A stretch of 64,000 nucleotides of DNA from Giardia intestinalis (Eukaryota): the NCBI GenBank assembly GCA_000002435.2, contig CM018793.1. One strand, given 5' to 3'. The notes beneath the pieces are model-generated. The model made no database searches. It had not been told where the DNA came from and saw only the letters and a list, made by a program, of their open reading frames with translations. Positions 1,722 to 55,764 of the stretch are shown in pieces (position 1 is the first letter of the stretch; every line of letters begins with the position of its first letter). The translations under genes and the position numbers were made by a program.

Positions 1722-1887
1722 TTCTCGAGATGACGATTCTTGATCAATTTGATTTTATTCTTTCATTTTATAACGGAAGAATAAGTCTGACCATGCTATT
1801 GCCGTGATGCCACATCGTCAACTTTTGCGAAAATCTCCAGGAGACGCTCTGTAAGCCCTTGGAGGCGAAAAATTCTTTAATTACAAA

Positions 1888-2469: not shown

Positions 2470-2866
2470 CTTCTGCTGCCGTTATCTTCGAAAATGGAGA
2501 GCAAAAGACCAGTACTGCAAACCCTTCAAACCGAACCATCACGAGACCGAGATGACTTCCCTCACTCACGAGTTGCAGCATATCCGTTTGAACACTTACG
2601 CTAAAGAGCCGAACGCTGGTCCAATCCTTGCTAAAATTTCTGCGAGTGTCTTCTGGAAGGTGTGATAGCGGGAGCAATATGCTGAGCTGGGTAGTCTCGG
2701 GGTCGTTTGAAGAATATGCATTGTGATATTGCAAGGCCACGTCATAGATACCTAGTAAGCTGGACCTGCTAAAGTATCCTCTGTTGTACTCGTCTATTAT
2801 GTTCTTTGCTGACGTAACCACTGCAGCATAGAAGACGCTGGGGGTCTTAGTAAACATGCGGTCCAT
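2435..2866 (-). CDS. hypothetical protein; possibly the C-terminal part of the upstream ERCC4/HhH gene if a frameshift is present
   Basis: 143-aa ORF whose ATG (2864-2866) lies within the last codons of the 2847-3494 ORF in another frame. Composition is protein-like. Confidence 0.3.
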   Translation of the reverse strand: MDRMFTKTPSVFYAAVVTSAKNIIDEYNRGYFSRSSLLGIYDVALQYHNAYSSNDPETTQLSILLPLSHLPEDTRRNFSKDWTSVRLFSVSVQTDMLQLVSEGSHLGLVMVRFEGFAVLVFCSPFSKITAAEVRGMVKDAYSK

Positions 2867-3494: not shown

Positions 3495-3522
3495 TCAATC
3501 CATGAGTCAGCTCCTCTTCCAA

Positions 3523-6264: not shown

Positions 6265-6353
6265 CAGGCCTTCTCAGACCAGGAAAGAAGGTACCCAGTT
6301 CAATTCTTGATAAATCAATACTTTCTCCTCCGTCTTACCAATTGCCTCTGCCC

Positions 6354-23594: not shown

Positions 23595-26069
23595 TTAATG
23601 GGTGCTTGCAACGATAGACTGCTTGTAGAGCAGTGGAACTCCGGCCTTCTTTCGGAAAACGAAAAACCAAACCAGCACAGCCGCCACACCGCCGACGACG
23701 AGGACCACGCCGATGGCGATGCCAGAGATAGCACTAGACGAGAGGGCGGACTTTTTAGAGGTGTTATCGTACTCCAGACATATGGGCTTGACTGCGCCCT
23801 CTGGAACCACGCAGAGGCTGCACTTGGAGATCGCCTTGTGACACGCCTTGCACGTGCTCTCGGAGAAGTAGTACCCGGCCAGGCAGTCGAAGCATGCCTC
23901 CCCATGAGGACAGGTGGCGCAGCCCTTGGAGCACGCCTTGCACGCCCCCTTCTCCAGGTAGAACCCGCTGTTGCAGGCGCTACAGGCTCCACCGCTACAC
24001 ATTGCACAGTTCGTCGGGCATGTAAGGAGCGTTCCGTTGTACGTTATCCCGTACCCGGCCACGGTGCTGTCACACCAGCCGTCGCTCGCCTTCGTGCAGA
24101 CAGTCTTCCCGGGGAGGAGCGTGGAGGTGTAGCACCCCCCGTTGAGCCTGAAGGAGTTCGAGCTGCAAACAACACACCTACCGGCGGCGACATTCGCGCA
24201 CGCGATGCCAGCCGCCCGCGAGCTGGAGGAGGTGCACGCCCCGTTGTTGGGGTACTCCGTGCTCTTGACGCAGCGCGAGCAGTAGCTGGTCCCGCCCACC
24301 GTGAGCCCGCACTCTGCACAGCTGCTGTCCTGCACGCACTGCGGGACGCACGATCCCTTGGCACCGTCGCTGTACTGCAGCCGCCTCTTGGCAGGGCAGG
24401 AGGTGCAGTCGCCGGATGCCGGTCCGCTGCACGTGGCGCACTCAGAGCTGCACGGCTTGCATCCTCCCGAGCCCTCGACGTAGAGCCCGTCCCTGCATGC
24501 CTTGCACTTGGATTCCGACTCGCAGACTGCGCAGTTGCCGAGCGTGCACGCCACGCACCTCGAGACGCCGCCCACGGTGGCCTTGTAGTACCCGGCGGAG
24601 CCCAGGCAGTCCTTCACGCACAGACCGTGGGGGTCGAGGCTGTTGCCATCGGTACACTTTGTGCACACGTCTCTGTCCTCGCACGTGTCGCAGTTGGGGT
24701 CCTTGCACTTGGTCGCCACGCACTGACTATCGGAGAGTGTGTAGCCATACTTGCACTTCTTACAGCTCGATTCATCACACTCAGCGCAGTTCTCCACCGC
24801 GCACCCGACACACTTCCCGTCCTTCAGATAGGACTCGTCATCGCATGCGCAGCTGTGGACCGAGGATGAGGACTCCTGCACGCCCTTCTGCCCCTTGGGA
24901 CAGCTGGCCAGGCAGCTCCTCTTATCCAGGCTCAGGTAGAGGTCGCGGCACTCCAGACACTGAAGACTACTGTCCTTCATCTCACACCTTTGACATCCCT
25001 CTATTCCCCCGTTGGCTGAGTCCCCGCAGCGCCAGCATCCGTTGTTCTTGGTGAACACCTCTTTGGTTGAGCTGTTACATGCGGTACAAACGTTTTCTTT
25101 CACTGCTTGACAAATCTGAGATTCTATTTGATCCGAAACATCTTTAAATAAGTAGCATCCACCATAAAACAAGAAATATTGCCTGTTGCCCTCATTCTTA
25201 CAAGATGTACACCTTCCCGATTCAGGATCCTTTACGCAAATGTCTTCAAACCCAGTTATTGATAGACAGAGGCCATTCAGAGGAATCTCTGATGGGTTGG
25301 TGCAGCGAGAGCATAGGGATTGCCCAGACATCTCCATGATATTCTCCGGTAGACAGATGCTGTTGCTTATTGGAGTATCTCTGGCATAACAAGCATAAAA
25401 GCTCCAAATGTGTGTTTCGGGACAGTATCCACAAAGACCATTGCTTGCACCTTCAGTGATGTGCTTACATCGATAATCATACGAGCATGTATTTTTGTGG
25501 TCTGAACATTGGTAGCAATTTGGGACCACTTCTTGCTTTATCCTTGAAGAGTTACAAACTAGACACCCATATATCCCACTATATCCACCAAAGCCCACAG
25601 TGTCTCCGCATGAGATGCATCGCTCGGGAGTGCTAGTGCTGGGATTGGTGAAGGCTACAGATGGCTGCGTTTCGTTTGTTTTTGCACATTCTACACAGAT
25701 CCCCTTTTCTGCTCGTTCACAAATGAACTTTGTCCAGTCTTGAGATAAATTATAGCACCCACCATAAAAAACAAAGTGGTCATCGCCGCACTTAGTGCAC
25801 CATCCGCCTGTTTGAGATTTAGCACAGCCAGACCGAGTAGCCTTGGAATCTCCAGCCAGAACACACTTGCCATCAATCGGTACGTATCCAGACTCGCATT
25901 CTGTACAAAGAAATCGCGAGGTTACACCCAATATGCAACTATTTGGAAGGCAATTTGGTATTTTACCTTCGCAGAAGTATCCAAACCCATTGCGATATAT
26001 AGGTGCCTCCTCAGAGAAGAACTCTGCCAGAAGACAAACCAATAGCAGAACTGATAAAGATCGTGACAT
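23595..26069 (-). CDS. high-cysteine membrane protein (HCMP; VSP-like ectodomain without a CRGKA tail)
   Basis: 824 aa with signal peptide MSRSLSVLLLVCLLAEFF, more than 80 Cys arranged as repeated CXXC/CXC/GCY modules, a single C-terminal TM (ISGIAIGVVLVVGGVAAVLVWFFVF) and a short cytoplasmic tail RKKAGVPLLYKQSIVASTH. Confidence 0.85.
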   Translation of the reverse strand: MSRSLSVLLLVCLLAEFFSEEAPIYRNGFGYFCEGKIPNCLPNSCILGVTSRFLCTECESGYVPIDGKCVLAGDSKATRSGCAKSQTGGWCTKCGDDHFVFYGGCYNLSQDWTKFICERAEKGICVECAKTNETQPSVAFTNPSTSTPERCISCGDTVGFGGYSGIYGCLVCNSSRIKQEVVPNCYQCSDHKNTCSYDYRCKHITEGASNGLCGYCPETHIWSFYACYARDTPISNSICLPENIMEMSGQSLCSRCTNPSEIPLNGLCLSITGFEDICVKDPESGRCTSCKNEGNRQYFLFYGGCYLFKDVSDQIESQICQAVKENVCTACNSSTKEVFTKNNGCWRCGDSANGGIEGCQRCEMKDSSLQCLECRDLYLSLDKRSCLASCPKGQKGVQESSSSVHSCACDDESYLKDGKCVGCAVENCAECDESSCKKCKYGYTLSDSQCVATKCKDPNCDTCEDRDVCTKCTDGNSLDPHGLCVKDCLGSAGYYKATVGGVSRCVACTLGNCAVCESESKCKACRDGLYVEGSGGCKPCSSECATCSGPASGDCTSCPAKRRLQYSDGAKGSCVPQCVQDSSCAECGLTVGGTSYCSRCVKSTEYPNNGACTSSSSRAAGIACANVAAGRCVVCSSNSFRLNGGCYTSTLLPGKTVCTKASDGWCDSTVAGYGITYNGTLLTCPTNCAMCSGGACSACNSGFYLEKGACKACSKGCATCPHGEACFDCLAGYYFSESTCKACHKAISKCSLCVVPEGAVKPICLEYDNTSKKSALSSSAISGIAIGVVLVVGGVAAVLVWFFVFRKKAGVPLLYKQSIVASTH

Positions 26070-40522: not shown

Positions 40523-43500
40523 ATGCATGAATTTTGTCTCGAAGCTACCCATAAAGTTTTGAGATACACTTCCGATGAGGAGGAGGATCTTCTTCGGGGC
40601 GTGTTTGCCATCAGGAAAGTCGATGAGGTGCTAGTGATGCTGCGAATTTTGGATTTCAGACAGCTTCCTCAGACCAGACGAACTGTTATGACAGCTAGAG
40701 TCAAGGCCAATCTGCGCTACCCAAGTCGGTATCTTACACAGATATACTCTCTTCAGGAAGCTCCAGACAAATCCAGGATCCTGATAGAGCTGTATCTGTC
40801 TACAAACAAAACGTTTGAATGCTTGCTAGTTGAGGATGTAATTTCTGTTGAGAGGGCTGTGAGGTTGATTTCTGACTTAGTGCATGGTACAGTTGAACTT
40901 CTAGACTATTATTTACAACGCAACGTTACCGTTACCCAGGATCTTCTCTGTAATGCAATCTTATTGCCCAGTACATTGTTTATTTTGCATGATGATACCA
41001 TACTTTTCCCGAATCCATGCATAGCTACACTCGATGCCGACTTGGGGTTTTCTAATAGGTTGCTTGAGCAAGAGCAATGGAAAAGATATGCACCACCAGA
41101 AATACATTTTTTGCTGTTAGACCGTGGCACAGAGCTATCTATCGACACTCTGGAGAAAGTCCTTACATGGTCTGTTGGTATGTTAGTGTCGGACCTTTAT
41201 TCTCTCGTAGAGGGATCAGACGGTATAGCTGACGCAATGGTCGATACCGTGTTCCCTGACCGATGCGCTATGCATTGTGATGTTCTTTGTCTTGTTCGAA
41301 AGATACTCTGCGCTTGCCTAGTAGAAGATCCTGCATCGCGGGCTGACTGTCAGACGCTTGCGATGAGTCTGGAAGCTGTCCAAAATATCCCGCAAGTTGT
41401 CTCCATTATTAATGCTTCAGAGCATTCAGTAGTTTCTATGAATACTAGTCTGATTTCGGATGAAGACAACTTTCTCATTCTTCCCAATGAATACTTATGC
41501 GTAGAAAGGCCGAGAGAGGATCATTTAGTTACTGCTATCCATGGTACACCAGGTTTTCATGATATTTTTGATGCTGATGATTACGCTGGCAGCATTTCAA
41601 GTGATTATTGGCAACTGGAAGATGAAGTGGCAGTACGACGGCATTCAATATCTTGCTATAAAAACGCACCTAATGAATCTGACTATTTTAACGAAGTCGA
41701 TATAAACGATAAGCGGTCACGATCTAAGTCAGACGCTTGGTCTCACAACTTAGCCGATAGCGCATTCCGCCGGTACATAGAGGCTGCTACCGTAGGACGT
41801 ACCGATTTAGTAGCTATCTATATCGGTAGGTGCTCCAGACAACAAGATATAGACGGTGGTACTGCTCTAATGGCAGCCACGAAAGGGGGAAAACATGAAT
41901 GTGTCTCTCTATTGGCACAGTGTGAAGCTGGCTTGCAAGATGTTCACGGACTATCGGCGCTAATGTATGCCGTGCTTCGAAGTGATGCTACATCTGTCCA
42001 ACTTCTTTGTACGGCCGAGTGTGGTCTGGTGGATGACAGAGGGATGACAGCTCTTATGCATGCGGTCGAGCAAGATTGCTATCAAGTGATTCATCTGCTT
42101 ATAGAAGAAGTTGCTATGATAAACACTAATCATATGAGCGCCTATGATATTGCCGTGAAGCTGGGGCACAACAGATGCACCATGATATTAGAACCATATG
42201 CACTGCAGCTCAGAGTACACCGTGTTGCACGCGTTAATAGCTATGGATACACAGCTTTAATGTTTGCCGCTATACAAAATGACGTTGCAACAGTGTGTCA
42301 GCTTGCTTCAGAAGAAGGAGGAGTAGTGGCAGAGGATGGTAGCACAGCTCTTTATGCTGCTATTCTGCATAACAACTACCTTTGTATACCACCTCTTCTA
42401 CGGTATGAACGATCTATAACGACACCTGATGGATCCACGCCGCTAGAGTTAGCAGAGAAGCTTAACCGCTATGAGTGCGCCCGTCTCTTGCGGAGCCCGG
42501 TTGTAAAAGGGTATCTTCCGATTGATACTGAGTCCTGTTTGATGAAGGAGGCAAGACACGGAGATCCAGAGCTTTTAAGAGCTCACTTGAATGAGGTTCT
42601 TTTAATGTCTGCTAGAGGTGAAACTGCCCTTATGATAGCCGCAGGTGCGGGAAGCTACAGGTGCGTAAAGGACCTATTGCAGTATGAGCAAGGGATGGTA
42701 TCTCCAACTGGCTGGACTGCTCTGATGTACGCGTCCATGAATGGACATTTAGACTGCGTTAGCTTGCTATGCGCCACTGAGGCGAGAATTACTAATACTC
42801 TCGGTCAATTAGCATATGATATTGCAGTGGAAAAAGGCCACAAGGCGTGTGCACGGTTTCTTTCTAAATATGAAGAGCATTTAACTGTTGCGTATCGGGT
42901 TGACGAACTTTTAGCTTTAGACCGTATAGGCGATGCGGTGAGACTACTCAAGCAGCCATTTGTGCTATCTGCAGCTCTTGTCAAATGTATTTGGAGCGTA
43001 CACGGGGGAGAATTTATGGTATTGTGGGGGGCTCTTCGAGCAAACGTGGACCTGACTATACTGGCCAAATATATCACTTTAGAAATGAGTGTTGACCTCA
43101 ATGATCCAGAGCTAACCGACCTTGTATTGAAAAGGAAAGCAGAGTATCAATTGGTCAGTGCAGGACAGAACAACTTAGAAAGTTTATTACATAAAGCTCT
43201 CTGTTCACAGAAATTTCTTGTTATTCCAGTTATCTGTGAGCATGCAATGACTAAGCGTAAGCGCATCTTTGTACAAAAGAGGGTTGGAAAAGCAGTCACC
43301 AGGAAAACAAGACTAATGATAGCAGCAGAGATTGGGGACCTTTCTGAAGTAGAGCAGAATCTTCAATACTTGTGTTTTCAATGTAAGGGTCTTTGCACTT
43401 TCCAAAGGAAGGAAGAGCGTCATTCTTTAGAGACTCATAATAAGACAGTCAGTAGCGTTACGGCTTTAATGCTTGCTGCTGCAAATGGACACAGGAACTG

Positions 43501-43723
43501 TGTTCCTGCTCTCCTTCCCGAACTAGGGCTACGGGACCAGGCATCTGGCACAACAGCTCTGATCCTTGCCCTTTGGTACGAAGATACTACTATTGTCCGC
43601 CTACTTCTTCCTGAGGCCAATATTGCTGATAACAGTGGTATGACTCCTTTAATGCATGCTTCTAAGAAAGATAACAAAAAATGTGCGCAATTACTTAAAT
43701 CATATTTGAAAGCAAAAGGATAA
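40523..43723 (+). CDS. ankyrin-repeat 'protein 21.1'-type protein with an N-terminal degenerate NEK-like pseudokinase domain
   Basis: 1066 aa. The N-terminal ~330 aa keep kinase-like landmarks without catalytic residues (YAPPEIHFL ~ APE; LTWSVGMLVSDLYSL ~ subdomain IX). The remaining ~700 aa are an array of about 18 ankyrin repeats (GGTALMAATKGGKHECVSLL..., GLSALMYAVLRSDATSVQLL..., TALMLAAANGHRNCVPALL...). Confidence 0.8.
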   Translation: MHEFCLEATHKVLRYTSDEEEDLLRGVFAIRKVDEVLVMLRILDFRQLPQTRRTVMTARVKANLRYPSRYLTQIYSLQEAPDKSRILIELYLSTNKTFECLLVEDVISVERAVRLISDLVHGTVELLDYYLQRNVTVTQDLLCNAILLPSTLFILHDDTILFPNPCIATLDADLGFSNRLLEQEQWKRYAPPEIHFLLLDRGTELSIDTLEKVLTWSVGMLVSDLYSLVEGSDGIADAMVDTVFPDRCAMHCDVLCLVRKILCACLVEDPASRADCQTLAMSLEAVQNIPQVVSIINASEHSVVSMNTSLISDEDNFLILPNEYLCVERPREDHLVTAIHGTPGFHDIFDADDYAGSISSDYWQLEDEVAVRRHSISCYKNAPNESDYFNEVDINDKRSRSKSDAWSHNLADSAFRRYIEAATVGRTDLVAIYIGRCSRQQDIDGGTALMAATKGGKHECVSLLAQCEAGLQDVHGLSALMYAVLRSDATSVQLLCTAECGLVDDRGMTALMHAVEQDCYQVIHLLIEEVAMINTNHMSAYDIAVKLGHNRCTMILEPYALQLRVHRVARVNSYGYTALMFAAIQNDVATVCQLASEEGGVVAEDGSTALYAAILHNNYLCIPPLLRYERSITTPDGSTPLELAEKLNRYECARLLRSPVVKGYLPIDTESCLMKEARHGDPELLRAHLNEVLLMSARGETALMIAAGAGSYRCVKDLLQYEQGMVSPTGWTALMYASMNGHLDCVSLLCATEARITNTLGQLAYDIAVEKGHKACARFLSKYEEHLTVAYRVDELLALDRIGDAVRLLKQPFVLSAALVKCIWSVHGGEFMVLWGALRANVDLTILAKYITLEMSVDLNDPELTDLVLKRKAEYQLVSAGQNNLESLLHKALCSQKFLVIPVICEHAMTKRKRIFVQKRVGKAVTRKTRLMIAAEIGDLSEVEQNLQYLCFQCKGLCTFQRKEERHSLETHNKTVSSVTALMLAAANGHRNCVPALLPELGLRDQASGTTALILALWYEDTTIVRLLLPEANIADNSGMTPLMHASKKDNKKCAQLLKSYLKAKG

Positions 43724-44319
43724 TACTGTAAGAGATTGTGTCTAAATTTATTGTATAATAACTCTATGAATACTTTATAATTGTTCTACTCAATATTAAT
43801 ATAAAAATGCATATTCTTGATGATCTGTGAAGGTATGGTAAGAAGCTGGTAGTTCTTACGTTTTACCAAAAAGCATCTTCAGTAAACCTAACTTATCCAT
43901 ATGCACGAATTCGAAGACTGCAAGTTGCGGCCTCAGCAGAACCCCCAGTCTTTTACAGAAGAGCTATAGACTGTCTGCAACCTCTTGGGATAATTTGTCT
44001 ATTTGCGCACTTCAGTACCCCATCCACGACGATGACCAGTAGACAGCAGCGACTCCTGCCTCGGACATAGCGCTAGATGCCGCCCAGCTCAGAACTCGTC
44101 AGCTAACATGTTCTACCCGAACGGAGGAGGCGCTTGGACAGCTGAGTGCAGAGGGAGCTATCTGCTAAGGTTATCCAATGGTTGTATCACCACGCACTCT
44201 TCCTTCATCGCTTCCATTTCTAAGACTCGCAGGAGAAGTCACAGACCCTATAGCAGCAGGGTAACGCTTGTTCAGACGATGCGCTCACCCCGCCCCTGAG
44301 CGTACTGGATGAATCGGTG

Positions 44320-44600
44320 CTGATCTTCTTGTCTCTAGTAGTTGACCCTGATCACTACAGCAGGTGTGGGCCTTGTATGGTGGTGGACCTTAGTAGTAGT
44401 TTACTCCACCCACCGGTTGCTTCCAGTGGTGTGCTGCTGGAGCCCTCGCCTGCGGGCGCTGTCCGCAAATCTCGCGAGTAAATTCCCGCTCAATTTTTGG
44501 CGATGTCCGGAGACGAGGGTTGGCTATGGAATATGATAATGACCACAGTAGTGGAAGGGAGGAGCTATTGCGTTCCTCGGTTGTTCCGCGGGCGTGCACA
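44320..44600 (-). repeat. inverted duplication (left arm) of the ankyrin gene 5' region and upstream sequence; its partner is at 47350-47630
   Basis: The reverse complement of 44398-44526 is near-identical to 47422-47550 (about 2 mismatches in 128). Weaker homology extends on both sides, including a decayed copy of the MSSVDDSDQLLQK start of the ankyrin gene. Confidence 0.75.
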
Positions 44601-44619
44601 CAGCTGTACCTGAGGCGAA

Positions 44620-47340
44620 GGAGAGCCCGCGAGGACCCGATCCGCATTCTGAATGCAAGATCGTACCTCCGGGCCCCAGAGAGCAAGCCATGAGTTCCTG
44701 CTCGGGGGACCACTCCGAAGACATTTACTCTCTCAGCAGGACACACACGCTGGCTCTGTGGCCTGCCGTGCGAGAGCGCCAAGCAACTAACCGAGCACCT
44801 GAGAGAAGCAAATGATGACAGACACAGAGTACTAGGCGACGACAAACTGATCATTCCGTCTCACATACCGAACCAGACAGCTGCCATGCTCATCCACCAG
44901 GGGGCACGCATGATCGCGAGCATCGAACAGGCCGGGACTGGGGTAGCGCTCCCCGCTATCAGGGGCCTAGACGCCCTGGTGGGAAGCCCCAGAGGACTCA
45001 AGCAACACAGTAGAGCAGGCCCAGAGTAAGGCAGACCCAGACCCCGAGAAGGCGAGGCGCCGGATAGCAAACAGGGTGAGTAACGCGCTGAGCTTCGGAG
45101 CAGTTGCTAAGGCTCTCCGTGCCCTTGATGACACACCCATGGTAGACATCAAGCCGGAGAAAGCCAAGGCCGCCCTCAGCGCGCTACACCCGTGCGTCCT
45201 CCCGAAGGCTACGTTGGCCTTGACTACCCTCCATCGATGAACTCGACGGGGCTGGAGCCGGCAACCGAAGAAGAAATGAGGAAGGCCCTGTTGGGACTCT
45301 CAACAAGAAGGCCTCGGGCGTGTCTGGCCTCGGGCCGGTCCATCTCAAGGCGATGAAGCAGAACGACGACTGTGAAATGCCTCACGCAGGCGTACAACGA
45401 GCTGACCACCCACCCCGAGGCGATGTCCGACGTGATGGCCATGTTCGAGTTCCGGGCGATCCTCATCCCGAAGGAGTCCGACGGATACCCCGATCGCGAT
45501 AGGCGGACGGTCACGAACATCTTCCACCGCGTCCTGCTGAAGGGCTGATCAGGCATGCCAGCTACCTCTCATGCGAGCAGATCGCCCTCAAGCAGAACGC
45601 ATACGCGGTAGGCGTGAGGAGGGCCCACGAGCTCATCAGCAGGCCGGGGATGCACCCCGTCTCCCTCGACACAAAGAACGCCTTCAACTCCCTCCCAAGG
45701 GCGGAGGTCGTCAGAGCCCTGAACGAGGCGGGCGTCCCGAAGGTCCTGGTCGACTACATTAGGAACTTCCTCGAGCCGAGGCACAGCCGGGACGTGAAGT
45801 GCGAGGTCTGCGGCGTCCCCAGGGCGGCCCGCTCAGCACGCTCCTCTTCTGCATGGCCACCGAGCGCCTCCTGAGACGCCTCAAGGAGAGAGGCATCACC
45901 TTCCTTGCCTATGCAGACGACATCGTGGCGTTCCACGACGAGGGGTACCCGGCAGGCACGATAACACAGCAGGCCACGGTGGAGGCCGCCGCCATGGACC
46001 TGACGATCAGGAGCGACAAATGCAAGTCTACCATGGCGGGCGAGGAGGTGACCTTCCTCAACCACCCGGCGTCCCCTACTCCTGCAAGCTCCAAAGGCCA
46101 TCGCAGGTGCCGAGACTGCCCTGAGGAAGATCGAGAGAGCACCCATAACCATCCACCAGAAGCTCATCCTGCTGTCACTGTGTGGTCCCGATGGTGAACT
46201 ACGCCCCCCTGGTCGAGATAACATCGAACAAGGTGAACTACGAGGAGCTCGACAGACATCGCACAAGGCTTCAGCAAAATAACTAACAGAAGCTGCGATC
46301 GCCTGGTCGACTTCCTGGCGTACCCGAAGGAGAAGGGCGGCCCGGGCCTGCTCATGCCGGGGCTCTACCACGACGAGCTGCGGAGGGCATGGGCCTCCCT
46401 GGACGTCAACAAGGGGGCCAGAGACCCGGTGGAGCTGTCGGTGGACGGCCAGGCACTGCAAGGAAAGGGACCTACTCCAACCGCCTCCTCAGCCACACAC
46501 CAGCTTCCGGACAGAGCGGCGGCGTGCTGACCGAGGAGGAAAGGGCCCTGAAGGAGAAGGGCGATTCGATCATGGCGCAGACAAGAGGCACCTGCCCGGG
46601 CTGCCACACGGCAGACCCTCGACCACGACATGAACTGCCCGAAGACGGCGTGGACCAGGACCACGAGGCACGACACGATCGTCACGTGCCTGTACCTCCG
46701 CGTCTCAGGGAAGTTCAACGCAGAGCTGGAGGTCAAGACCCACAGCCACCTCAGCGACCAGAACCAGAAGCCCGACATCTGGCTCGTCGACAAGTGGAAG
46801 GCGATAGATGTGGGCGTCATCCAGCCCCGCCAGATGGATGCCTACTACAACGAGAAGGTCAAGAAGTACAGGGACGGGACGCTCCCGATCATCTACGGGA
46901 CAGACGGATCCCTCCACCCCAGTCCAAGGGGCACCTCGAGGAGCTCCACGTGGACCTCTGTCCGGGCTGCCTTCGCCATCGCCCACATGGCTGCAGAGGC
47001 GAACGAGCACCCGACGAAGCTGATCAGACGGGCCGGGCCGAAAGCCTGGCCACCCAGAGCGACCGTCTCCTGTCATCCTACTTCTGACAACCGAATGAGT
47101 CCATCCCCGGGACCTGTCGACAACGACCGAGAAGGGGCGCAAGACTGGACACACAACCGAGTTGAATCCCAACCAGAAGAGAAAGCCCCGCTAGCTGCTG
47201 CTGATATACATGGACAGTATTGAGAATGACAACAAAGACCAGAGCTTCACTCACCGTGAGGGGAGAACAAAGAGAGGTGCCCTAGTAGACCAGTGAGTCC
47301 ATGAGATGGCTTGATCTCCAAAAGGACCTATGTGCACATC
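44620..47340 (+). mobile_element. degenerate non-LTR retrotransposon (GilD-like 'dead' element): RT, CCHC and REL-endonuclease remnants split by frameshifts
   Basis: RT motifs read in different frames. Motif 0: ATEEEMRKALLGL / NKKASGVSGLGPVHLKAM. Motifs 1-2: FRAILIPKESDGYPDRD...RRTVTNIFHRVLLKG. Motif 3: VSLDTKNAFNSLPRAEVVRALNEAGVPKVLVDYIRNFL. Motifs 4-5: PQGGPLSTLLFCMATERL...FLAYADDIVAF. Motif 6: IRSDKCKS. Downstream are the CCHC motif CPGCHTADPRPRHE and the REL-endo motif KPDIWLVDKWKAIDVGV. It is GC-rich (about 63%). Confidence 0.75.
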
Positions 47341-47349
47341 CAGTCTAAG

Positions 47350-47630
47350 TGTACTCCTGTAGAATAGCCGAGGAACGCAATAGCTTCTCCCTACAACCGA
47401 TGTGATTATCGTTACGGTCCGTGACCAACCCTCGTCTCCGGACATCGCCAAAAATTGAGCGGGAATTTACTCGCGAGATTTGCGGACAGCGCCCGCAGGC
47501 GAGGGCCCCAGCAGCACACCACTGGAAGCAACCGGTGGGTGGAGTAAACCACCTTTGTGACCATGGAATAAAAATGTCGTCTGTGGATGATTCAGATCAA
47601 CTCCTTCAGAAGCACGACTGCGCCCCGCCC
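47350..47630 (+). repeat. inverted duplication (right arm) covering the promoter/5' end of the ankyrin gene
   Basis: Partner of 44320-44600; see that entry. Confidence 0.75.
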
Positions 47631-48245
47631 CTTATGCCCGAGAAGGACACGAGCGAAGAGGGCGCAGGAAACCCAACTGAGCCTTCAGAAATGGATGATG
47701 AAGGCAGCGTGGACGAGAACGGCGTCACCACACTTATGAAGGCAGCCAGCAGAAACGACGTGGACGCGGTGAAGCGCTACATCCCTTATCAGGCAAGGAT
47801 GGTGGCGAGGTTTGTCAAGGCAGGGAGAGTAGAGATACGCGAAGGAACGGCACTGATGATCGCCGCGGTGCTTGGACACGTTGAGGCGGTGAAGCTGCTG
47901 ATGAAGCACGAGCGTTGCATGAGGAGCAGCAATGAGTACACGGCCCTCATGTGGGCGGCAGCAAATGGTCGCGCTGAGGTCGTGAGGCTACTCATGGAGG
48001 TTGAGGGTGGCATGCAGCAGGGCAAGGGCTGGACTGCTCTCGTCAGTGCAGCATACTTTGGTCGTCTGGACTGTGTCAAGTTACTGCTGGAGAAGGAGAG
48101 GGACATAGGCGGCTGGCCTGCTCTTTGCGTAGCTGATATGGAGGGTCATTCCGAGGTGGTGTCTCTTCTCGAGAGTGAGGGTATTGGACTGGAGGAGCCC
48201 TGTCTACGGATGTCGCCCAGAAAGGCCGTGAGTGAACGCGCCTAA
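47574..48245 (+). CDS. ankyrin-repeat protein (21.1-type, short)
   Basis: The track ORF starts at 47421 inside the inverted repeat. The preferred ATG 47574 (MSSVDDSDQ...) precedes an acidic N-terminus and about 5 ankyrin repeats (GVTTLMKAASRNDVDAVKRYI..., TALMIAAVLGHVEAVKLLM..., YTALMWAAANGRAEVVRLLM..., WTALVSAAYFGRLDCVKLLL...). Confidence 0.65.
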   Translation: MSSVDDSDQLLQKHDCAPPLMPEKDTSEEGAGNPTEPSEMDDEGSVDENGVTTLMKAASRNDVDAVKRYIPYQARMVARFVKAGRVEIREGTALMIAAVLGHVEAVKLLMKHERCMRSSNEYTALMWAAANGRAEVVRLLMEVEGGMQQGKGWTALVSAAYFGRLDCVKLLLEKERDIGGWPALCVADMEGHSEVVSLLESEGIGLEEPCLRMSPRKAVSERA

Positions 48246-48808
48246 CTGTTGGTTGCATCCGGCGGTGGATAGAATCTCCCTCCAGCTGTGCAGCAAACAG
48301 ACACCTCAATGAAGTGGTGGCTGTCAGTGAGGCACACAGCTGCCCGTTTCCGCAGAGGTCAGGGGGAGCAGGCCTTCTCACCCCCGGCCAGCACTGGAGC
48401 GCCAGTGGGTGAAACGGTCGCACGGGTGGCCTTCTTGCCCTTGATGCAGAAGCCCTCCGCAAGCATTGGACCACTACAGATATGTAGACACAAACCCCTG
48501 TGGAAACGGATCGTTTCCAAAACTGTAGATTACCAAAATAATAAAACCAGGATGGACACTGCCTCGTCTGGGTCTGCAACGGTGGCTTTCAGTGCCCCGC
48601 AGTTCACCCCTAGGGAGCTCCACGAGCGGCTGGATGATGTGCTGGCCAAAGACCCCACAAGCACAATCTACTCTCTCGAAGCTATCTGGAGCTCGCTGTA
48701 AAGGTCATTCTACTAGATGGCCTGGACAAGAACAGCGCAGACGCCATCAGACTCGAGCTGGCCGCCCTCCCCGATCTCTCCCACCCAGGAGTCCTCAAGC
48801 ACCATCAA

Positions 48809-50778: not shown

Positions 50779-51537
50779 ATGGCACTTATTGAGGCGGCCA
50801 AGGAGAACAGGCTGGACTACGTCAGGGCCCACAAGGCCGCGGACGCAGGCCAGAGGGACGCAGACGGGAAGACGGCGCTCATGTGGGCCGCCGAGGCCGG
50901 GCACACCGCCGTCGCCCTGGAGCTGGTCGACGCAGAGGCGGGCCTGGTCTCGAACGACGGGTCCTTCGCGCTGATCGCGGCGGCAAAGAGGGGGAACCTC
51001 GAGCTGATCCAGGCCCTTTTCGAGAAGGAGGGGAGGCTGCGGGACGCCGGCAAGCTCTCCGCCCTCAACCACGCCTCCAGGGCGAAGCAGTTCGAGGCGG
51101 CCAAGGTCCTCCGGCTGAAGACCATCGAGACGATGGACGCGGCGATGCTGGAGCAGCTCCGCCAGAGGGTCGCGGCCACCTACACCGAGATGGCCAAGAA
51201 GTCGCAGCAGGCCGAGGTCAAGAGCCACAACATGGCCATCTTCCGCTCGTTCTTCGAGGCGTTCTACTCCCTCTCCTGCTCGGGGATCGACCAGGGGGCG
51301 GAGATCTCGGAGGAGCAGCTGAACAAGTCCCTCGAGAAGTGCCTGGGCGAGATCCGCAAGCTCCTCAACTCGAAGAAGTACACGAAGTGCGTGAAGTGCC
51401 GCGCCAACGCCCCCAACCTGGTCTGCATGCCGTGCAAGCACTACGTCCTCTGCAAGGACTGCGGGAAGGACGTGGCCAGCAAGGTCTGTCCTGCTTGCAA
51501 CAAGCCGGTCGAGGAGTTCATGGAGGTCTTCAAGTAA
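50779..51537 (+). CDS. ankyrin-repeat protein with C-terminal RING finger (putative E3 ubiquitin ligase); strongly GC-biased codons
   Basis: 252 aa with three to four ankyrin repeats (GKTALMWAAEAGHTAVALELV..., SFALIAAAKRGNLELIQALF...), a coiled-coil linker and a C3HC4 RING: CVKCRANAPNLVCMPCKHYVLCKDCGKDVASKVCPACNKPV. GC3 is about 85%. Confidence 0.75.
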   Translation: MALIEAAKENRLDYVRAHKAADAGQRDADGKTALMWAAEAGHTAVALELVDAEAGLVSNDGSFALIAAAKRGNLELIQALFEKEGRLRDAGKLSALNHASRAKQFEAAKVLRLKTIETMDAAMLEQLRQRVAATYTEMAKKSQQAEVKSHNMAIFRSFFEAFYSLSCSGIDQGAEISEEQLNKSLEKCLGEIRKLLNSKKYTKCVKCRANAPNLVCMPCKHYVLCKDCGKDVASKVCPACNKPVEEFMEVFK

Positions 51538-51573
51538 ACGCTAAGAGGCGCTCCACGCACTGCAGATGTCCAC

Positions 51574-54206
51574 CTAGTCGGGGCTCACCAGTAGGATTGC
51601 TTTGGCAGCTGCGCCACGAACCACACAGGACGGAGACGCGGTGATTGGCGCAGCCTCAGAAGGAGCCAGCGGACGCGACCCGTGACAGTCTGACAGGACC
51701 AGATTTGTGAAGACGTCTGCCTCTGCAAGCCCCTCCACCCAGCGGCCGTAGCCGAGACCCACCCTGGCCCTCTTTCCCATCAGTCCACCCAGACAAGGCT
51801 TACTGTAGAACCGATGCTTCCCGCTGTTCAGTGTATTTGTTTGGCTAAAGACACGCGGGTCCTTTTCAGATGCGGCTGCAGGGCCATCCCGCGTGGAGCT
51901 GGGAGAGCGCAACGGCCTCCTCCGCCGCGTACTGCTCCGGGGCGTCGGCAGGCTGCTCTCGTAGAGCCAGCCGTGGTGGGCCAGCGCCAGCCGTCCTCGC
52001 TGCACGGGCTTATGGAGAGCTGGTAGATGAGCCTCGTCAGGTGCTCGCGGAAGGCGGGGAGGCCCTGCAGCTCGAACACCCCGTATATGCGCGAGTAGTC
52101 CCCGCCGCGAGAGCAGTATGTGCTTGGCGATCTTCAGAAGCACGACGATGGACGAAAGGTTGTTGACCTTGGACAGCTGGTACCCTGGGAAGTTGCACGT
52201 GAGCGTGCCCGCCGTGTTTATGTTGGCGGGGTTGTTGGTGCTATTGTCTCCGCGCAGGAACTCCATCAGGTTGGCCAGGTTGTTCGGGATGTACGCCATC
52301 GGCGGCCTGGAGCCCCCACCCGGGACGCTCTGCGCCGCGGCCCCTGGCTGGCCGCCGTGCTGGACGGCTGCAGGATGTGCGAGACGTAGCCGTAGAAGCA
52401 GCGCGACGCCGTCAGCAGGCAGAACAGCCGCCTGCCGCTCGCCAGGCTGTGGAGGGGCCTCGCGGGGCCTAGCGCCGGGTCCGGCGGGGCGCCCTGCTTG
52501 GCGGGCCTGGCCTGCAGGAGGAGAAGGATGTGGAGGCAGCTCTTCAGCACAGACTCCCGGACGTGCTGCGTGGACGATGGGGTGTTGTTGGAGAACGCGC
52601 CCTTCTCAGCGTCCTTCGTCGTGCCCGCAGCCGCCTTGGCCGACAGGACCGTCTCGAGCATGTGGGGGACCCCGCACAGCGCCAGGCGGAGCAGCGACGA
52701 GAGGAACGCCGGCATGTCGACCTCCCGGTTCAGGTGGTAGAGCTGGTGCCCCAGGACGCAGTCGGCCTCGTTGGAAATGCCGACGAGCATCGCCTGCTGG
52801 ACGTCCAGGGGGAGCGCGTAGGCGAGCACATTGACCAGCTCGTGGTACTTGATGCTGCGGAACCGCTCCTCGTGGTAGTTGAAGGACAGCACCTTCTCTA
52901 TGCACCGCTCGAAGTAGGGCAGATTGCCCTTCGCACCCGGCCTCCCCGAGAACGGGAAGGACGCGGTCAGCCCCCGCTTGACCCTGTTGAGGTACATGCG
53001 GTAGTCGCCGGTGGCCACCGCGTTGCCGAGGGTGCGCTCCAGCTCGGCGTCGTGCCCGCCGCCCAGGTCGCTCCGACCGCCGACAGAGGTCTCCTGGGAG
53101 CGCGACACGACGGACTCTCTGGCGTCGCAGCTGTACCGCATGGCCATGTACCCCCCGTGGAGGTCTGCCAGGGACTGCAGGCCGATCCGCACGTCCGGCC
53201 CGGGGAGCGGCTGGAAGAGCCCCGGGCGCCGCCTGTTGGGCTGGGGGCGTTGAAGGCTGTCATGACGCTTGCACACTCTGCTATCTGGTCTGCGACGCCC
53301 TTGTCGGCGTAGGGGAGACGTTGCCGGACGAGAAGGGGGCGTCCTTCGGCCTGAACGAGCCCTCGAAGAACCGCAGCAGGGCCGCGACAGACGAGGACGT
53401 GGGGTTGACGTAGCCACGAAAGCGCGGGGGCGGAAGCCGCTTGACGGTCTTGATCGCGCAAGACCCGGCGCTGCCCTGCTCCTCCAGGGCCATCCTGCGG
53501 ATGCTCCGGCACTTCCGGGCCTGCTTGTGGTCGCCCAGCGGGCCCAGGAGGAGGAGGAGCGCCTGTCTCAGCAGGGCCACCGGGCGGCAGCAAGCCACGC
53601 AGCGGGCGATCGCGTTGTTGAAGGTGTTGTTGTGCGGGCCCGCGTCTGCCTGGATCAGCTTGGAGAGTAGGAGCGCAAGGGGGTGGACCAGAGCCCTGAC
53701 GAAGCCTTCGAAGGTGTGGAGGTAGGGCGAGCAGTCGACTGAGCCGTCCAGGCGATCGTAGACGGTGTGCTCGAAGACGGTGACCCCCCGCAGGTTCAGG
53801 GAGGCCAGCACGAGATGCAGGACCTGGATGCAGTGGGTCAGGGGAGGCGGGAGCTGCTTGCTTGCGTTCTGCGTCGACTCCGCCCTCAAGTCCGAGAGGG
53901 AGACCGCGCACTCGCCGGGACGCCGAACCGCTTGAGGACCTGCCTGAAAAGGGAGCCGCCGTTGTGGAGGAAGAGGAGGAGCGCCCGCCTCGCCTCGTCG
54001 GCGCCCAGCTCGTCCTCGAAGAGCGAGAGGAACGACTCGCTGAGCTCGTAGATCGCCGGCTCCACGTCCGACCACACGACCGAGAGCGGGGCGGTCGTCC
54101 GGTCCCAGTCCAGGCTTCCGTCCCCCATGTTTGCGTTTTCTGGCCCCGCGTGTCCCTCTGCCCCAATCCATAGGGCCATGGGCTTGAGCAGACGAGAGCC
54201 GCCCAT
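51574..54206 (-). pseudogene. GC-rich protein-coding gene of unknown function interrupted by at least 3 frameshifts (pseudogene or assembly errors)
   Basis: Successive minus-strand ORFs in different frames read like real protein (Y/F/N/K/H-containing): ...AIYELSESFLSLFEDELGADEARRALLLFLHNGGSLFRQVLKRFG...; ...FEHTVYDRLDGSVDCSPYLHTFEGFVRALVHPLALLLSKLIQAD...; ...GDYRMYLNRVKRGLTASFPFSGRPGAKGNLPYFERCIEKVLSFNYHEERFRSIKYHELVNVLAYALPLDVQQAMLVGISNEADCVLGHQLYHLNREVDMPAFLSSLLRLALCGVPHMLETV...; ...AYIPNNLANLMEFLRGDNSTNNPANINTAGTLTCNFPGYQLSKVNNLSS... The plus-strand ORFs over the same span look antisense-like. Family not recognised. Confidence 0.4.
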
Positions 54207-55764
54207 TCATCCTCTACTATACGTTTCCACGGATGGCACCGTTCGCGGCAGGGGCACTGAAGCCTCAGGCGTTCCTCTCTGCCAACAACCATGAACTACG
54301 GTAAGGTTCTGACTAGGCTGGAAGGCGCTCTGGCGGTGGCACGGGCAACTGCTAGACCCACCCGCATCGGCCTCTGGTCATGAAGGCGAGCTGGCCCTTC
54401 CTTGGTGTGTCCTCCATACTAGTGGGACTTGCCGCGCTTCCCCCTCACGTGCAGCCAAAGGCCATGGCCGACGTCCGCACTGGTCATATAGCCGACCTCT
54501 GTGACTCTGGTGGCAGCGTGCTTGCTCGCTTATTCCGCGAGGCATGGGCATGGTAGTTACCGGCCTTGCTGCACAGCTCTTGACGGCGCCTTCCAGCCAT
54601 TGCATCGGCCAGCTGTGCTACTTACAAGAAGCTCGCGCGCGTTCCCAACGTTGCAGCGACGCACGCTTGATCCCCGGCGGTGATTACTTTCATTAGTGGT
54701 GGTGCCCGCTCCGTCTCTAATCTAGTGTCGAACACACCAAGGATACGGCGGCGCCACTCACGTTGCCGACGACCGCTTTATCCTGGCTTCTCAGATTGAA
54801 GGAGTGCTCTTGCTGGGCGTGGGCTCCCACGCTCCCCTTCATGGCCTCCTGGCCCTGTGCAATCTCTTCCTGGAGGACGGGGTGCTGCTGCGCGCGATGT
54901 CGTGCACGGCATGTCGCCGAAGCAATAGCAGGGCTGCGCAATCATGCATCCACTTGGTGGGCTACATGACTTGGCCCGCCATGCTTCTCTGTGCCTTCTT
55001 GTCAGTGCTAAGCGGGCACCCTTACGACGGCCAGCGCCTATGCGGCTGCGTGTCCATTCAATATATTTGCTCGCGTCCTTGCCGGTTTACCGTACTTGGT
55101 CTCCTCATTGAGCTCTGCAATTGCCAGCTGCCACAGAGCGAGGCAGGTTCTTACTCTGCCCGAGGGCGATTATTGTGGGAAGCTCCATGCAAAGAACGAC
55201 TCCACAGCGGCTCAGTTTGTTATATGGACAGCGGGCAACCCGAGTTATTCGTGGGGGAGACAGTGCCACAGACACATACCCTCTTCTCTCAATTCTAACG
55301 AGCAATCTTACAAGACCAGAAACAGAAGATTGCTGTCCATGAGGGCGGCTCTAAACTGCTCGGCGCATACAATGCACTCGAGAAGAGGCCTCCTGAAGAT
55401 GTGCTGGTAGGTGCGGAATCGGACGGTCCGATCGAGACGCCGTCCCTGGCAGCCACTGGTTCTCCTAGGGGCGACGAGCCCCATGCCCCCGATGGACTCC
55501 CACTTCCAAAGCCCCAGCCAGCAACGTCTGGTGCCTCCAAGTGCTCCTCTCAAACTAGCCAGTTACCTTATTGCACTGAGGCTAGTTTGTCAGCTGTTGC
55601 CTGACCAGGTCCTCCATGCGAGCCACCGCCGCCCTAGGTTGACAACCTCTCGCTCGTTCACTAGCTGAGACCCAGAATCCGAAAGTCGGATGTCGTCCAG
55701 TTCTGACGGGGAAGATTTATGCCCCCTCCCTCGAGGTGATAGCGAATGCAGATGAGCGTTCGAG

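What the first reader, a model, noticed from the sequence alone, without database searches (positions are those of the whole stretch)
44620..47340. Decayed non-LTR retrotransposon (GilD-like) with RT, CCHC and REL-endonuclease remnants in shuffled frames
Reading all three plus frames between 45.05 and 47.1 kb recovers an almost complete ordered set of non-LTR RT motifs: motif 0 (TEEEMRKALLGL / KKASGVSGLGPVHLKAM), motifs 1-2 (FRAILIPKE...RRTVTNIFHRVLLKG), motif 3 (SLDTKNAFNSLPR), motifs 4-5 (PQGGPLSTLLF...FLAYADDIVAF) and motif 6 (IRSDKCKS). A CCHC motif (CPGCHTA...H) and a PD-(D/E)xK REL-endo motif (KPDIWLVDKWKAIDVGV) follow, as in R2/NeSL/Giardia GilM-GilT-GilD elements. The motifs sit in at least 5 different frames, so this copy is dead. 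It is the clearest accessory element in the window and accounts for one of the GC-rich islands. Which Giardia family it belongs to (GilD versus a decayed GilM/T or Genie) cannot be decided by eye.
Basis: partly seen in the sequence, partly recalled or inferred. Interest (0 to 1): 0.7.

Follow-up and report, generated by a model that had tools for sequence, protein, structure and literature searches.

The report
Dead GilD retrotransposon copy in Giardia

Summary
Every quoted peptide is in the + strand translations. A stitched 678-aa reading hits Pfam RVT_1 (E=2.8e-22). A family profile hits solved R2 proteins (E~1e-46), with a separate CCHC/REL-endonuclease match (3.9e-10).

The window is Giardia intestinalis WB C6, where GilD/Genie 2 was first described. 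The closest relatives are equally decayed copies in isolates DHA2 (88-90% nt) and GS_B (75% nt). Other Giardia RT/endonuclease proteins are only 28-34% identical, so this is not a decayed copy of those families, presumably GilM/GilT.

The copy needs at least 17 frame changes to read.

Homology between copies runs 44399-47549. The ends are a 204-nt inverted repeat (44396-44599 / 47349-47552) with a 78-nt hairpin core identical in all six assemblage-A arms. There is no target-site duplication and no poly(A).

A 5-kb long form in DHA2 starts its ORF at an ATG inside the left repeat core. It carries about 2 kb of N-terminal zinc-finger coding sequence that the window copy lacks.

Verdict: already known, low interest, interpretation supported.

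The parts
44399..47549 (+). Whole element (short form of the GilD-type family), 3,151 bp
   Evidence: Homology to copies at unrelated loci (DHA2 L002, L004) starts at GTTTACTCC and stops at GGAGTAAAC, and the flanks differ. There is no TSD and no poly(A).
44396..44599 (.). Left arm of the terminal inverted repeat
   Evidence: the repeat finder I1: 204 nt, 87% complementary to 47349-47552. blastn gives E=1.7e-69 and there is no other copy in the window.
44446..44523 (+). Invariant core of the left arm. It holds an AT-rich stretch CAATTTTT (44491-44498) and ATG 44503-44505 (MSGDEGW...), which is the start codon of the long-form ORF in DHA2. In this copy that frame stops at 44611-44613.
   Evidence: The core is 78/78 identical in all six assemblage-A arms. 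P0219 begins MSGDEGW at the same ATG in L016. Calling the AT-rich stretch an initiator is inference (Giardia AT-rich TSS consensus: PMC3792122).
44602..47087 (+). Remnant of the single ORF. At least 17 frame changes are needed. It is 78% identical to a family reference over 833 codons. The stop codon is at 47085-47087.
   Evidence: Frameshift-aware alignment. Eleven indels are private to this copy.
44757..44825 (+). Zinc-finger-like motif CGLPCESAKQLTEHLREANDDRH, the only N-terminal finger left in this copy
   Evidence: It aligns with CWICGLACENAKQLAEHLRESNDDRH of P0001. The two upstream C2H2 fingers of the long form (Pfam zf-C2H2, below cut-off) are missing here.
45255..46065 (+). Reverse transcriptase domain (motifs 0-7), with YADD at 45910-45921
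   Evidence: Pfam RVT_1 E=2.8e-22. Invariant D216, N219-A220, G264/G268 and A298-D299-D300 in the family alignment. The motif 1-2 segment GY-PDRDRR is locally scrambled by a -2/-1 indel pair.
46593..46638 (+). CCHC motif (CPGC...H...C), split by a 2-nt deletion private to this copy at about 46612
   Evidence: Invariant C527, C530, H538 and C542. It aligns with the R2 CCHC. The deletion is shown.
46660..46900 (+). REL-type (restriction-enzyme-like) endonuclease domain: RHD 46666-, KPD 46768-46776, IDV ~46804-46812, KVKKY 46855-46869
   Evidence: Profile match to the R2 RLE domain, i-Evalue 3.9e-10. tblastn from P0082, P0073 and P0076 reaches 46621-46923. The longest invariant coding stretches lie here.
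47088..47549 (+). 3' untranslated region (462 nt)
   Evidence: It follows the stop codon at 47085-47087 and is conserved between copies up to the terminus.
47349..47552 (.). Right arm of the terminal inverted repeat. It contains the invariant core 47425-47505, a terminal hairpin at ~47506-47545, and ends in AGTAAAC (47543-47549).
   Evidence: AGTAAAC resembles the Giardia polyadenylation signals AGUGAA/GUGAAC and the UAAA motifs (PMC3610916). A role as a signal is inferred.

Best explanation
This is a fossil copy of the dead Giardia non-LTR retrotransposon family known as GilD (Arkhipova and Morrison 2001) or Genie 2 (Burke et al. 2002).

The family is an R2-like, single-ORF element. Its protein has N-terminal zinc fingers, a reverse transcriptase, a CCHC motif and a C-terminal restriction-enzyme-like endonuclease.

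An active ancestor would have worked as follows. It was transcribed from the left end. The long form shows that the ORF starts at an ATG inside the left inverted-repeat core, just after an AT-rich stretch. The protein nicked chromosomal DNA and copied the RNA from its 3' end by target-primed reverse transcription.

The window copy is a 'short form'. Compared with the 5-kb long form it lacks about 2.03 kb of N-terminal coding sequence. In its place are about 75 extra bases of inverted 3' UTR. The start codon is out of frame with the body.

The same junction is shared by copies at unrelated loci. I therefore infer that the short form was a non-autonomous derivative copied in trans, or that it spread before the last active copies died.

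After insertion this copy collected at least 17 frame-breaking indels. It cannot make protein or move. It survives as neutral DNA whose inverted repeats can still recombine.

Shown: identity, domain order, ends, repeats, decay, and the start codon of the long form. Inferred: promoter and poly(A) roles of the repeat, trans-mobilisation, and how the repeat arose.
For: - Host: the flanking 1066-aa ORF is identical to XP_001705810.1 of G. intestinalis WB C6.
- RT: RVT_1 E=2.8e-22.
- Architecture: the family profile hits R2 structures at E=1.2e-46 and L1 ORF2p at only 1e-23. The CCHC/RLE part gives a separate hit at 3.9e-10. A colinear 614-aa BLASTP alignment to another Giardia RT/RLE protein runs RT-thumb-CCHC-RLE.
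- Family: the only close relatives are hypothetical proteins of G. duodenalis GS_B and DHA2, 61-70% identical on decayed reads. Their loci match 44396-47558 at 88-90% nt, including both repeat arms, and the flanks are unrelated.
- Decay: 17 frameshifts. Most indels are private to the window copy.
- Lesions shared with L002/L003: -1 at 45200 and -11 at 46955.
- Long form: L016 1307-6290. The 861-aa ORF P0219 starts MSGDEGW at the ATG in the repeat core. Its residues 686-861 align to window 44601-45125, and residues 1-685 are absent from the window.
- Literature: GilD copies lie next to VSP genes and are disrupted by deletions (PMC2861651). The GENIE clade carries the Cys-His motif and the REL motif (PMC2790886).
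Against: - I could not align the copy to the published GilD/Genie 2 sequences, because none is reachable with these tools. The family name rests on host genome, decay, size and neighbourhood, and on eliminating the other Giardia RT families. I also recall from memory that Genie 2 copies carry inverted repeats of up to 172 bp.
- There is no target-site duplication and no poly(A) at the ends, which is unusual for target-primed insertion.
- Long terminal inverted repeats are atypical for non-LTR elements.
- This copy is not beside a VSP gene. The nearest one is at 23595-26069.
- Some indels 'shared' with DHA2 copies could be homopolymer errors in those assemblies.
- No transcription or small-RNA data were available.
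Confidence: 0.9

Rival explanations
1. It is a decayed copy of the telomeric families GilM or GilT (Genie 1), not of GilD.
For: The domain order is the same, and it is colinear with another Giardia RT/endonuclease protein.
Against: - Identity to the other Giardia RT/endonuclease proteins (P0075, P0082) is only 28-34% over the RT-RLE region. Identity to the GS_B copy is 70% at the protein level, and 88-90% nt to DHA2 copies.
- GilM is 5,474 bp long and sits in arrays at a chromosome end (PMC7000408). This is a single 3.15-kb copy between unique genes.
- Caveat: P0075 and P0082 are taken to be GilM/GilT-type from their annotation only.
Confidence: 0.03
2. The inverted repeats are not part of the retrotransposon. 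The element inserted site-specifically into the centre of a pre-existing palindromic repeat, such as the spacer of a tail-to-tail VSP pair or a fold-back DNA element. The arms are target DNA.
For: - RLE-type elements are often site-specific.
- In DHA2 L002 and GS_B L005 the inverted repeat runs 717 and 397 nt past the element ends into tail-to-tail VSP genes.
- A tail-to-tail VSP pair with a 3.3-kb spacer holding a non-LTR relic is reported for WB (bioRxiv 10.1101/2022.03.07.483299).
Against: - In the window, L002 and L004, homology ends at the same base on both sides and the flanks are unrelated.
- In the long form the ORF start codon lies inside the left arm core, so the arm is functionally part of the element.
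- GS_B 3' ends carry the same core after the 3' UTR.
- No solo palindrome was seen in any fetched locus.
Confidence: 0.1
3. The copies spread as DNA rather than by reverse transcription. This could have happened by recombination or repair involving the inverted repeats, or by a transposase acting on the terminal inverted repeats. The window copy would then be a DNA-level duplicate.
For: - Sharp inverted-repeat ends, no poly(A) and no TSD.
- Lesions shared between copies at different loci.
- A 38-nt patch of the arms is swapped between the window and L002, which shows the arms recombine.
- Other isolates diverge from WB 6 nt from the left terminus.
Against: - No transposase-like ORF was seen in or near any copy.
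- A transposase would normally leave a TSD, and none is present.
- The shared lesions are equally explained by trans-mobilisation of a defective master RNA by an R2-like protein.
- R2-type insertions often lack poly(A) and a regular TSD (established knowledge of R2).
Confidence: 0.12
4. It is a remnant of a cellular or other reverse transcriptase (telomerase, group II intron, retron) rather than a retrotransposon.
For: Group II intron and retron RTs appear among the weaker PDB matches.
Against: - R2 proteins are the best matches by more than 20 orders of magnitude.
- There is a C-terminal CCHC plus RLE domain.
- The sequence is multi-copy with defined ends at unrelated loci.
Confidence: 0.01

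Closest known systems
GilD (Arkhipova and Morrison 2001) = Genie 2 (Burke, Malik, Rich and Eickbush 2002), the 'dead' non-LTR family of Giardia lamblia WB
   Same: - Same genome.
- Every copy examined is degenerate, with frameshifts and deletions.
- About 3 kb long.
- Related copies sit beside VSP genes (PMC2861651).
- RT followed by Cys-His and REL motifs, as in the GENIE clade (PMC2790886).
- Terminal inverted repeats (from my memory of Burke et al. 2002, 'up to 172 bp').
   Different: - Nothing contradicts membership, but the published sequences could not be aligned here.
- The repeat measured here is 204 nt, of which only the outer ~122 nt is near-perfect.
- The 5-kb long form, with the ORF start in the left repeat core, was seen in DHA2. 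I do not know whether it has been described.
R2 elements (R2Bm, R2Tg and other solved R2 proteins: 9nl3, 9dou, 9nl2, 8gh6, 8ibw)
   Same: A single ORF with N-terminal zinc finger(s), RT, thumb, CCHC and a PD..D..K restriction-like endonuclease. The profile E-value is 1e-46, with a separate RLE hit at 3.9e-10. By inference it also works by target-primed reverse transcription.
   Different: - No 28S rDNA target.
- 25-30% identity at best.
- It has long terminal inverted repeats, and its start codon lies inside the left repeat.
- No Rfam ribozyme or other RNA family matches.
GilM / GilT (Genie 1), the telomere-associated Giardia families
   Same: Same host and same RLE-type architecture.
   Different: - Only 28-34% identity to the Giardia proteins annotated 'reverse transcriptase/endonuclease'.
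- GilM is 5,474 bp long, in arrays at a chromosome end, and encodes an RT (PMC7000408).
- This is a single decayed internal copy.
RT/endonuclease elements of other diplomonads (Spironucleus salmonicida KAH0575584.1, Hexamita inflata CAL6087886.1)
   Same: Colinear RT-CCHC-RLE proteins at 27-29% identity. They are among the best non-Giardia hits in a scan of 1.84 billion proteins.
   Different: Different genera, apparently intact ORFs of about 1,200 aa, and no evidence examined for inverted repeats.

Membership tests
RLE-type non-LTR retrotransposons (R2 / NeSL / CRE / R4 / GENIE group) | Reverse transcriptase domain with non-LTR motifs | tested here: met
   Pfam RVT_1 at 79.9 bits against a cut-off of 29.6. 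The YADD, PQG and SLD..NAF residues are invariant in the family alignment.
RLE-type non-LTR retrotransposons (R2 / NeSL / CRE / R4 / GENIE group) | Cys-His motif and restriction-enzyme-like endonuclease C-terminal to the RT, with no N-terminal APE endonuclease | tested here: met
   The profile hits the R2 RLE domain at i-E 3.9e-10. C527/C530/H538/C542/H553/K615 are invariant. tblastn reaches 46621-46923. Pfam finds only RVT_1 and weak zinc fingers, and no Exo_endo_phos.
RLE-type non-LTR retrotransposons (R2 / NeSL / CRE / R4 / GENIE group) | N-terminal zinc-finger DNA-binding region | tested here: met
   One finger-like motif remains at 44757-44825. The long form P0219 has two more C2H2-type fingers, which score just below the Pfam cut-off.
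RLE-type non-LTR retrotransposons (R2 / NeSL / CRE / R4 / GENIE group) | Insertion footprint of target-primed reverse transcription: variable 5' truncation, and a short TSD or deletion | tested here: inconclusive
   There is no TSD at 44399/47549 or in L002/L004. All assemblage-A short copies share one 5' junction. L005 may be truncated, but this is unresolved.
GilD / Genie 2 | Resident of the Giardia lamblia WB genome, present only as degenerate copies | tested here: met
   WB C6 by exact protein match. There are 17 frameshifts in this copy, and five other copies are also broken.
GilD / Genie 2 | Inverted repeats at the ends of the copies (recalled from Burke et al. 2002, not verifiable here) | tested here: met
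   A 204-nt repeat, 87% complementary. It is present in L002, L004 and L016 as well.
GilD / Genie 2 | Located in gene-poor regions next to VSP genes (PMC2861651) | tested here: inconclusive
   Copies L001, L002, L003 and L005 adjoin VSP genes. The window copy lies between ankyrin and NEK genes, and the nearest VSP is at 23595-26069.
GilD / Genie 2 | Nucleotide identity to the published GilD / Genie 2 sequences | not testable with these tools
   No reference sequence for GilD/Genie 2 or Repbase is reachable, and the primary papers are not in the held library.
GilM / GilT (Genie 1) | Close sequence similarity to the GilM/GilT RT-endonuclease | tested here: not met
   28-34% identity to Giardia 'reverse transcriptase/endonuclease' proteins P0075 and P0082. 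Their identity as GilM/GilT rests on annotation only.
GilM / GilT (Genie 1) | Head-to-tail arrays at chromosome ends, unit about 5.5-6 kb | tested here: not met
   It is the single copy in 64 kb, 3.15 kb long, and flanked by unique genes.

The most novel reading that the evidence does not exclude
GilD may be a non-LTR retrotransposon whose terminal inverted repeat is functional, not accidental.

The same invariant 78-nt hairpin would act on the left as initiator plus start codon. On the right, in the opposite sense, it would act as the 3'-end or RT-recognition element.

A non-autonomous short form capped by an inverted copy of its own 3' end would then have been mobilised in trans.

The repeats would later seed inverted (tail-to-tail) duplications of neighbouring VSP genes and chromosomal rearrangements, linking a dead retroelement to expansion of the antigenic-variation gene family.
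Probability: 0.2. Interest if true: 0.5.

Novelty: already known. Interest (0 to 1): 0.22.

Why it matters
As an annotation, it settles that 44.4-47.55 kb is a retroelement fossil and not genes.

For biology the value is modest. It gives one more dated-by-decay copy of the only 'dead' retrotransposon family of a putatively asexual protist.

Three structural points may interest specialists:
- The ORF start lies inside the inverted repeat.
- There is a long form and a short form.
- The repeats show evidence of recombination, and in other isolates they are continuous with tail-to-tail VSP duplications.

Tried and rejected
- **RNA families.** An Rfam scan of 43700-48300 at E<=1 found nothing. There is no HDV-like ribozyme or known Giardia ncRNA in the repeats.
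- **Target-site duplication.** The 675-bp left flank is unique and ORF-free. It has no similarity to the right flank in either orientation.
- **Empty site.**
  - Ten Logan contigs carrying the upstream gene either stop at the repeat or continue with unrelated sequence.
  - The downstream 223-aa ankyrin gene is not on record elsewhere. It belongs to a multi-copy family, so it is useless as an orthology anchor.
- **Second copy in the window.** None was found for the RT, for the long-form N-terminus, or for the repeat arm.
- **L005 as a truncated copy.** I tried to read GS_B L005 as an independent 5' truncation carrying a fresh inverted cap. Its 190 nt between the left arm and the body match nothing, so this is unresolved.
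- **Covariation in the arm hairpins.** Only one compensatory pair was found. The core is too invariant to test.
- **Primary papers.** Arkhipova and Morrison 2001 and Burke et al. 2002 are not held. One review places GilD at telomeres (PMC5537684). That conflicts with the title of the primary paper and with this internal locus, so I did not rely on it.
- **Shared -2 deletion in RT motif 1.** I considered it as proof that a dead master was copied. It lies in a C-run, and the DHA2 assembly may carry homopolymer errors, so I rely instead on the -1 at 45200 and the -11 at 46955.
Full report
**What is there**

The mechanical ORF list shows only short overlapping ORFs on both strands between 44.4 and 47.3 kb. 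This is what a GC-rich, frame-broken coding remnant looks like (GC 0.62-0.63 at 45-47 kb).

I stitched the best-reading segments into a 678-aa conceptual protein. It scores 79.9 bits on Pfam RVT_1 (E=2.8e-22, cut-off 29.6).

Because I chose the stitching by eye, I also ran unbiased searches. Database proteins found with the stitched query map back by tblastn to one locus only, 44613-47095, with HSPs alternating between the three frames. RT proteins of other Giardia families and of Spironucleus and Hexamita hit both the RT part and, separately, 46621-46923.

**Where the window comes from**

The 1066-aa ORF just upstream (40523-43720) is identical to XP_001705810.1 / KAE8304668.1, 'Ankyrin repeat protein 1' of Giardia intestinalis ATCC 50803 / WB clone C6. 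The window is therefore from the genome in which GilD/Genie 2 was originally described.

**Domain architecture**

An alignment of the stitched protein with seven diplomonad or unnamed RT proteins shows these residues invariant:
- RT: the SLD..NAF, PQG and YADD residues
- thumb: the VNYxP residues
- CCHC: four Cys/His positions (C527, C530, H538, C542)
- endonuclease: H553 (the RH(N/D) motif) and K615 (the K..KY motif)

The profile of that alignment hits solved R2 retrotransposon proteins at E=1.2e-46 to 1.6e-32, and human L1 ORF2p at only about 1e-23. A separate significant stretch (i-Evalue 3.9e-10) lines up CxxC..H..C, RHN, KPD, DV and KVRKY of the R2 restriction-like endonuclease. The single-sequence search gave the same segments.

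BLASTP against a Giardia GS 'reverse transcriptase' (P0082) is colinear over 614 residues at 28% identity, from motif 0 to the conserved GxDGSLHP tail.

The element is therefore an R2-like, RLE-type non-LTR retrotransposon. The GENIE clade is described in the same way in PMC2790886.

**Decay**

A frameshift-aware alignment of a family reference protein to 44560-47120 needs 17 frame changes. It gives 78% identity over 833 codons and ends at the stop codon 47085-47087.

An alignment of four assemblage-A copies shows eleven indels private to the window copy. Among them are a 22-nt deletion at about 46518 and a 2-nt deletion inside the CCHC motif at about 46612. RT motif 1-2 is locally scrambled, reading GY-PDRDRR instead of GYRPIAIGE.

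A majority consensus of the four copies restores much longer open stretches of 387 and 505 codons. Most of the damage is therefore copy-specific and happened after insertion.

**True ends and the inverted repeat**

The repeat finder reports a 204-nt inverted repeat, 87% complementary, with arms at 44396-44599 and 47349-47552. blastn gives E=1.7e-69 and finds no further copy in the window.

Loci fetched for the five homologous proteins show the following:
- Three DHA2 (assemblage A2) copies match 44396-47558 at 88-90% nt, including both arms.
- In the window, L002 and L004 the homology begins at GTTTACTCC (44399) and ends at GGAGTAAAC (47549).
- The flanking DNA is unrelated between these loci.

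The unit bounded by the repeats is therefore what was copied. No target-site duplication and no A-run is present at any of the three copies.

**Structure of the arms**

Each arm has five segments:
- an outer ~44 nt with a small terminal hairpin
- a 78-nt core
- a 38-nt middle patch
- a conserved 22-nt segment
- a poorly conserved innermost ~20 nt

The core is 78/78 identical in all six assemblage-A arms, and the two cores are the two longest invariant runs of the whole element. The core is also the part conserved in assemblage B. It folds as a long imperfect hairpin. The A/B differences are G-U-compatible, but there is too little variation to prove a structure. No Rfam family matches.

**A long form explains the left end**

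A scan of 1.84 billion representative proteins with the GS_B protein P0001 found a cluster covering its N-terminal 330 residues. One member, DHA2_153013 (P0219, 861 aa), lies on L016.

Its ORF starts MSGDEGW at the ATG inside the left repeat core (window equivalent 44503-44505), 4 nt after CAATTTTT. It runs through about 2 kb encoding C2H2-type fingers (Pfam zf-C2H2, just below cut-off). It then joins the sequence shared with the window copy: P0219 residues 686-861 align to 44601-45125, and residues 1-685 are absent from the window.

In L016 the element spans about 1307-6290, and its inverted repeat is the outer-plus-core part only (94 nt at 100%).

The window copy is thus a short form. About 2.03 kb is missing. 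About 75 nt of additional inverted 3' UTR (44524-44599) stand in its place. The start codon frame stops at 44611-44613.

Giardia initiates transcription at AT-rich sites (PMC3792122). Its polyadenylation signals are AGUGAA/GUGAAC-like or contain UAAA (PMC3610916). I therefore read the left core as initiator plus start codon, and the terminal AGTAAAC as a 3'-end signal. Both readings are inferences.

**How it spread**

All four assemblage-A short copies share the same arm-body junction. The window, L002 and L003 also share a 1-nt deletion at 45200, between the N-terminal region and the RT, and an 11-nt deletion at 46955. L004 and both GS_B copies lack these deletions.

Copies at unrelated loci therefore descend from an already defective template. 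The simplest reading is trans-mobilisation of a non-autonomous short form by protein from a long form. DNA-level copying cannot be excluded.

**Family assignment**

The only close relatives in 5.8 billion proteins are Giardia hypothetical proteins.

The next tier, at 27-35% identity, comprises:
- Giardia proteins annotated 'reverse transcriptase/endonuclease' and 'reverse transcriptase'
- Spironucleus and Hexamita RTs
- unnamed metagenomic proteins

GilM is a 5,474-bp unit in arrays at a chromosome end (PMC7000408). GilD is the family disrupted by deletions and found next to VSP genes (PMC2861651). Copies L001, L002, L003 and L005 do adjoin VSP genes.

The inverted repeats match my recollection of Burke et al. 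2002. I could not read that paper or Arkhipova and Morrison 2001, and no reference sequence is available, so the name GilD/Genie 2 is very likely but not formally tested.

**Surroundings**

- Left of the element are 675 bp of unique non-coding DNA.
- Right of it, 24 nt from the terminus, starts a 223-aa ankyrin gene of a multi-copy family.
- Next come a NEK kinase-ankyrin gene and an ankyrin-RING gene, then an unexplained GC-rich stretch.
- The other GC island (19-25 kb) holds a NEK gene and a VSP gene.
- The element therefore accounts for only part of the 44-56 kb GC-rich block.

**Verdict**

The element is a known kind in its known host: a dead short-form GilD/Genie 2 copy. Novelty is nil for the finding as stated. 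The structural details above, and the items listed as noticed in passing, are of modest specialist interest.

Noticed in passing
window 44392/44393; loci L012-L015 (e.g. L012 5180-5568): Short-read assemblies of other isolates carry the identical upstream ankyrin protein. They follow the window up to 44392, 6 nt before the element terminus. They then continue for 389 nt with sequence absent from the whole window and from all fetched loci. Mismatches rise from 0% (43724-44114) to about 3% (44115-44392). L006 has the WB junction. This looks like a structural variant or rearrangement breakpoint at the element end, not a simple empty site.
   Followed up: partly
window ~44525-44562 and ~47386-47424; L002 arms: A 38-nt patch of the repeat arms is swapped between the window copy and DHA2 copy L002. 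Left(window) = right(L002) at 38/38 and right(window) ~ left(L002) at 34/38, whereas the two window arms agree at only 22/38. The innermost 20 nt keep their side. This suggests recombination between the arms (inversion of the body) or arm-to-arm conversion.
   Followed up: partly
L002 163-1069 vs 4773-3869; L005 1-487 vs 2502-2013: In a DHA2 copy and a GS_B copy the inverted repeat continues 717 and 397 nt beyond the element termini into tail-to-tail VSP genes. The element is then the unique centre of a large palindrome. This matches a report of WB tail-to-tail VSP pairs separated by about 3.3 kb holding non-LTR relics (bioRxiv 10.1101/2022.03.07.483299).
   Followed up: partly
L016 1307-6290 (DHA2 contig AHGT01000031.1): This is a 5-kb long form of the family. 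Its 861-aa ORF (DHA2_153013) starts at the ATG in the left repeat core and encodes about 640 extra N-terminal residues with C2H2-type fingers. The outer 32 nt of its left arm are replaced by ankyrin-repeat coding sequence. The same locus holds a second, inverted partial copy (1-605) and a 41-nt solo terminal fragment (8617-8657).
   Followed up: partly
L001 1-3327 (GS_B contig AHHH01000232.1): The assemblage-B copy keeps a 1108-aa open reading frame through the zinc fingers, RT and thumb, and is frame-shifted only in the CCHC/RLE part. It is much less decayed than any assemblage-A copy seen here.
   Followed up: no
window 47574-48245: A 223-aa ankyrin-repeat gene starts 24 nt from the right terminus of the element. 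It belongs to a family with many 65-82% identical paralogues of 221-225 aa on several WB chromosomes and in P15, DHA2 and GS. Its exact sequence is not on record in any other assembly.
   Followed up: partly
window 51500-55500: This is the most GC-rich stretch of the window (0.62-0.69). It has long overlapping ORFs on both strands, none with a Pfam match and none similar to any RT tested. Its nature was not established.
   Followed up: no
window 19983-21335 and 23595-26069: The other GC-rich island contains a NEK kinase-ankyrin gene and, on the minus strand, an 823-aa VSP gene (Pfam VSP E=5.9e-73).
   Followed up: no
window 43801-43824 and 47568-47591: The motif ATAAAAATG plus a following ...GATGAT, typical of a Giardia gene start, occurs 78 nt after the upstream ankyrin gene without any ORF behind it. 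It occurs again at the real start of the 223-aa ankyrin gene. The first may be a dead gene start or chance.
   Followed up: no
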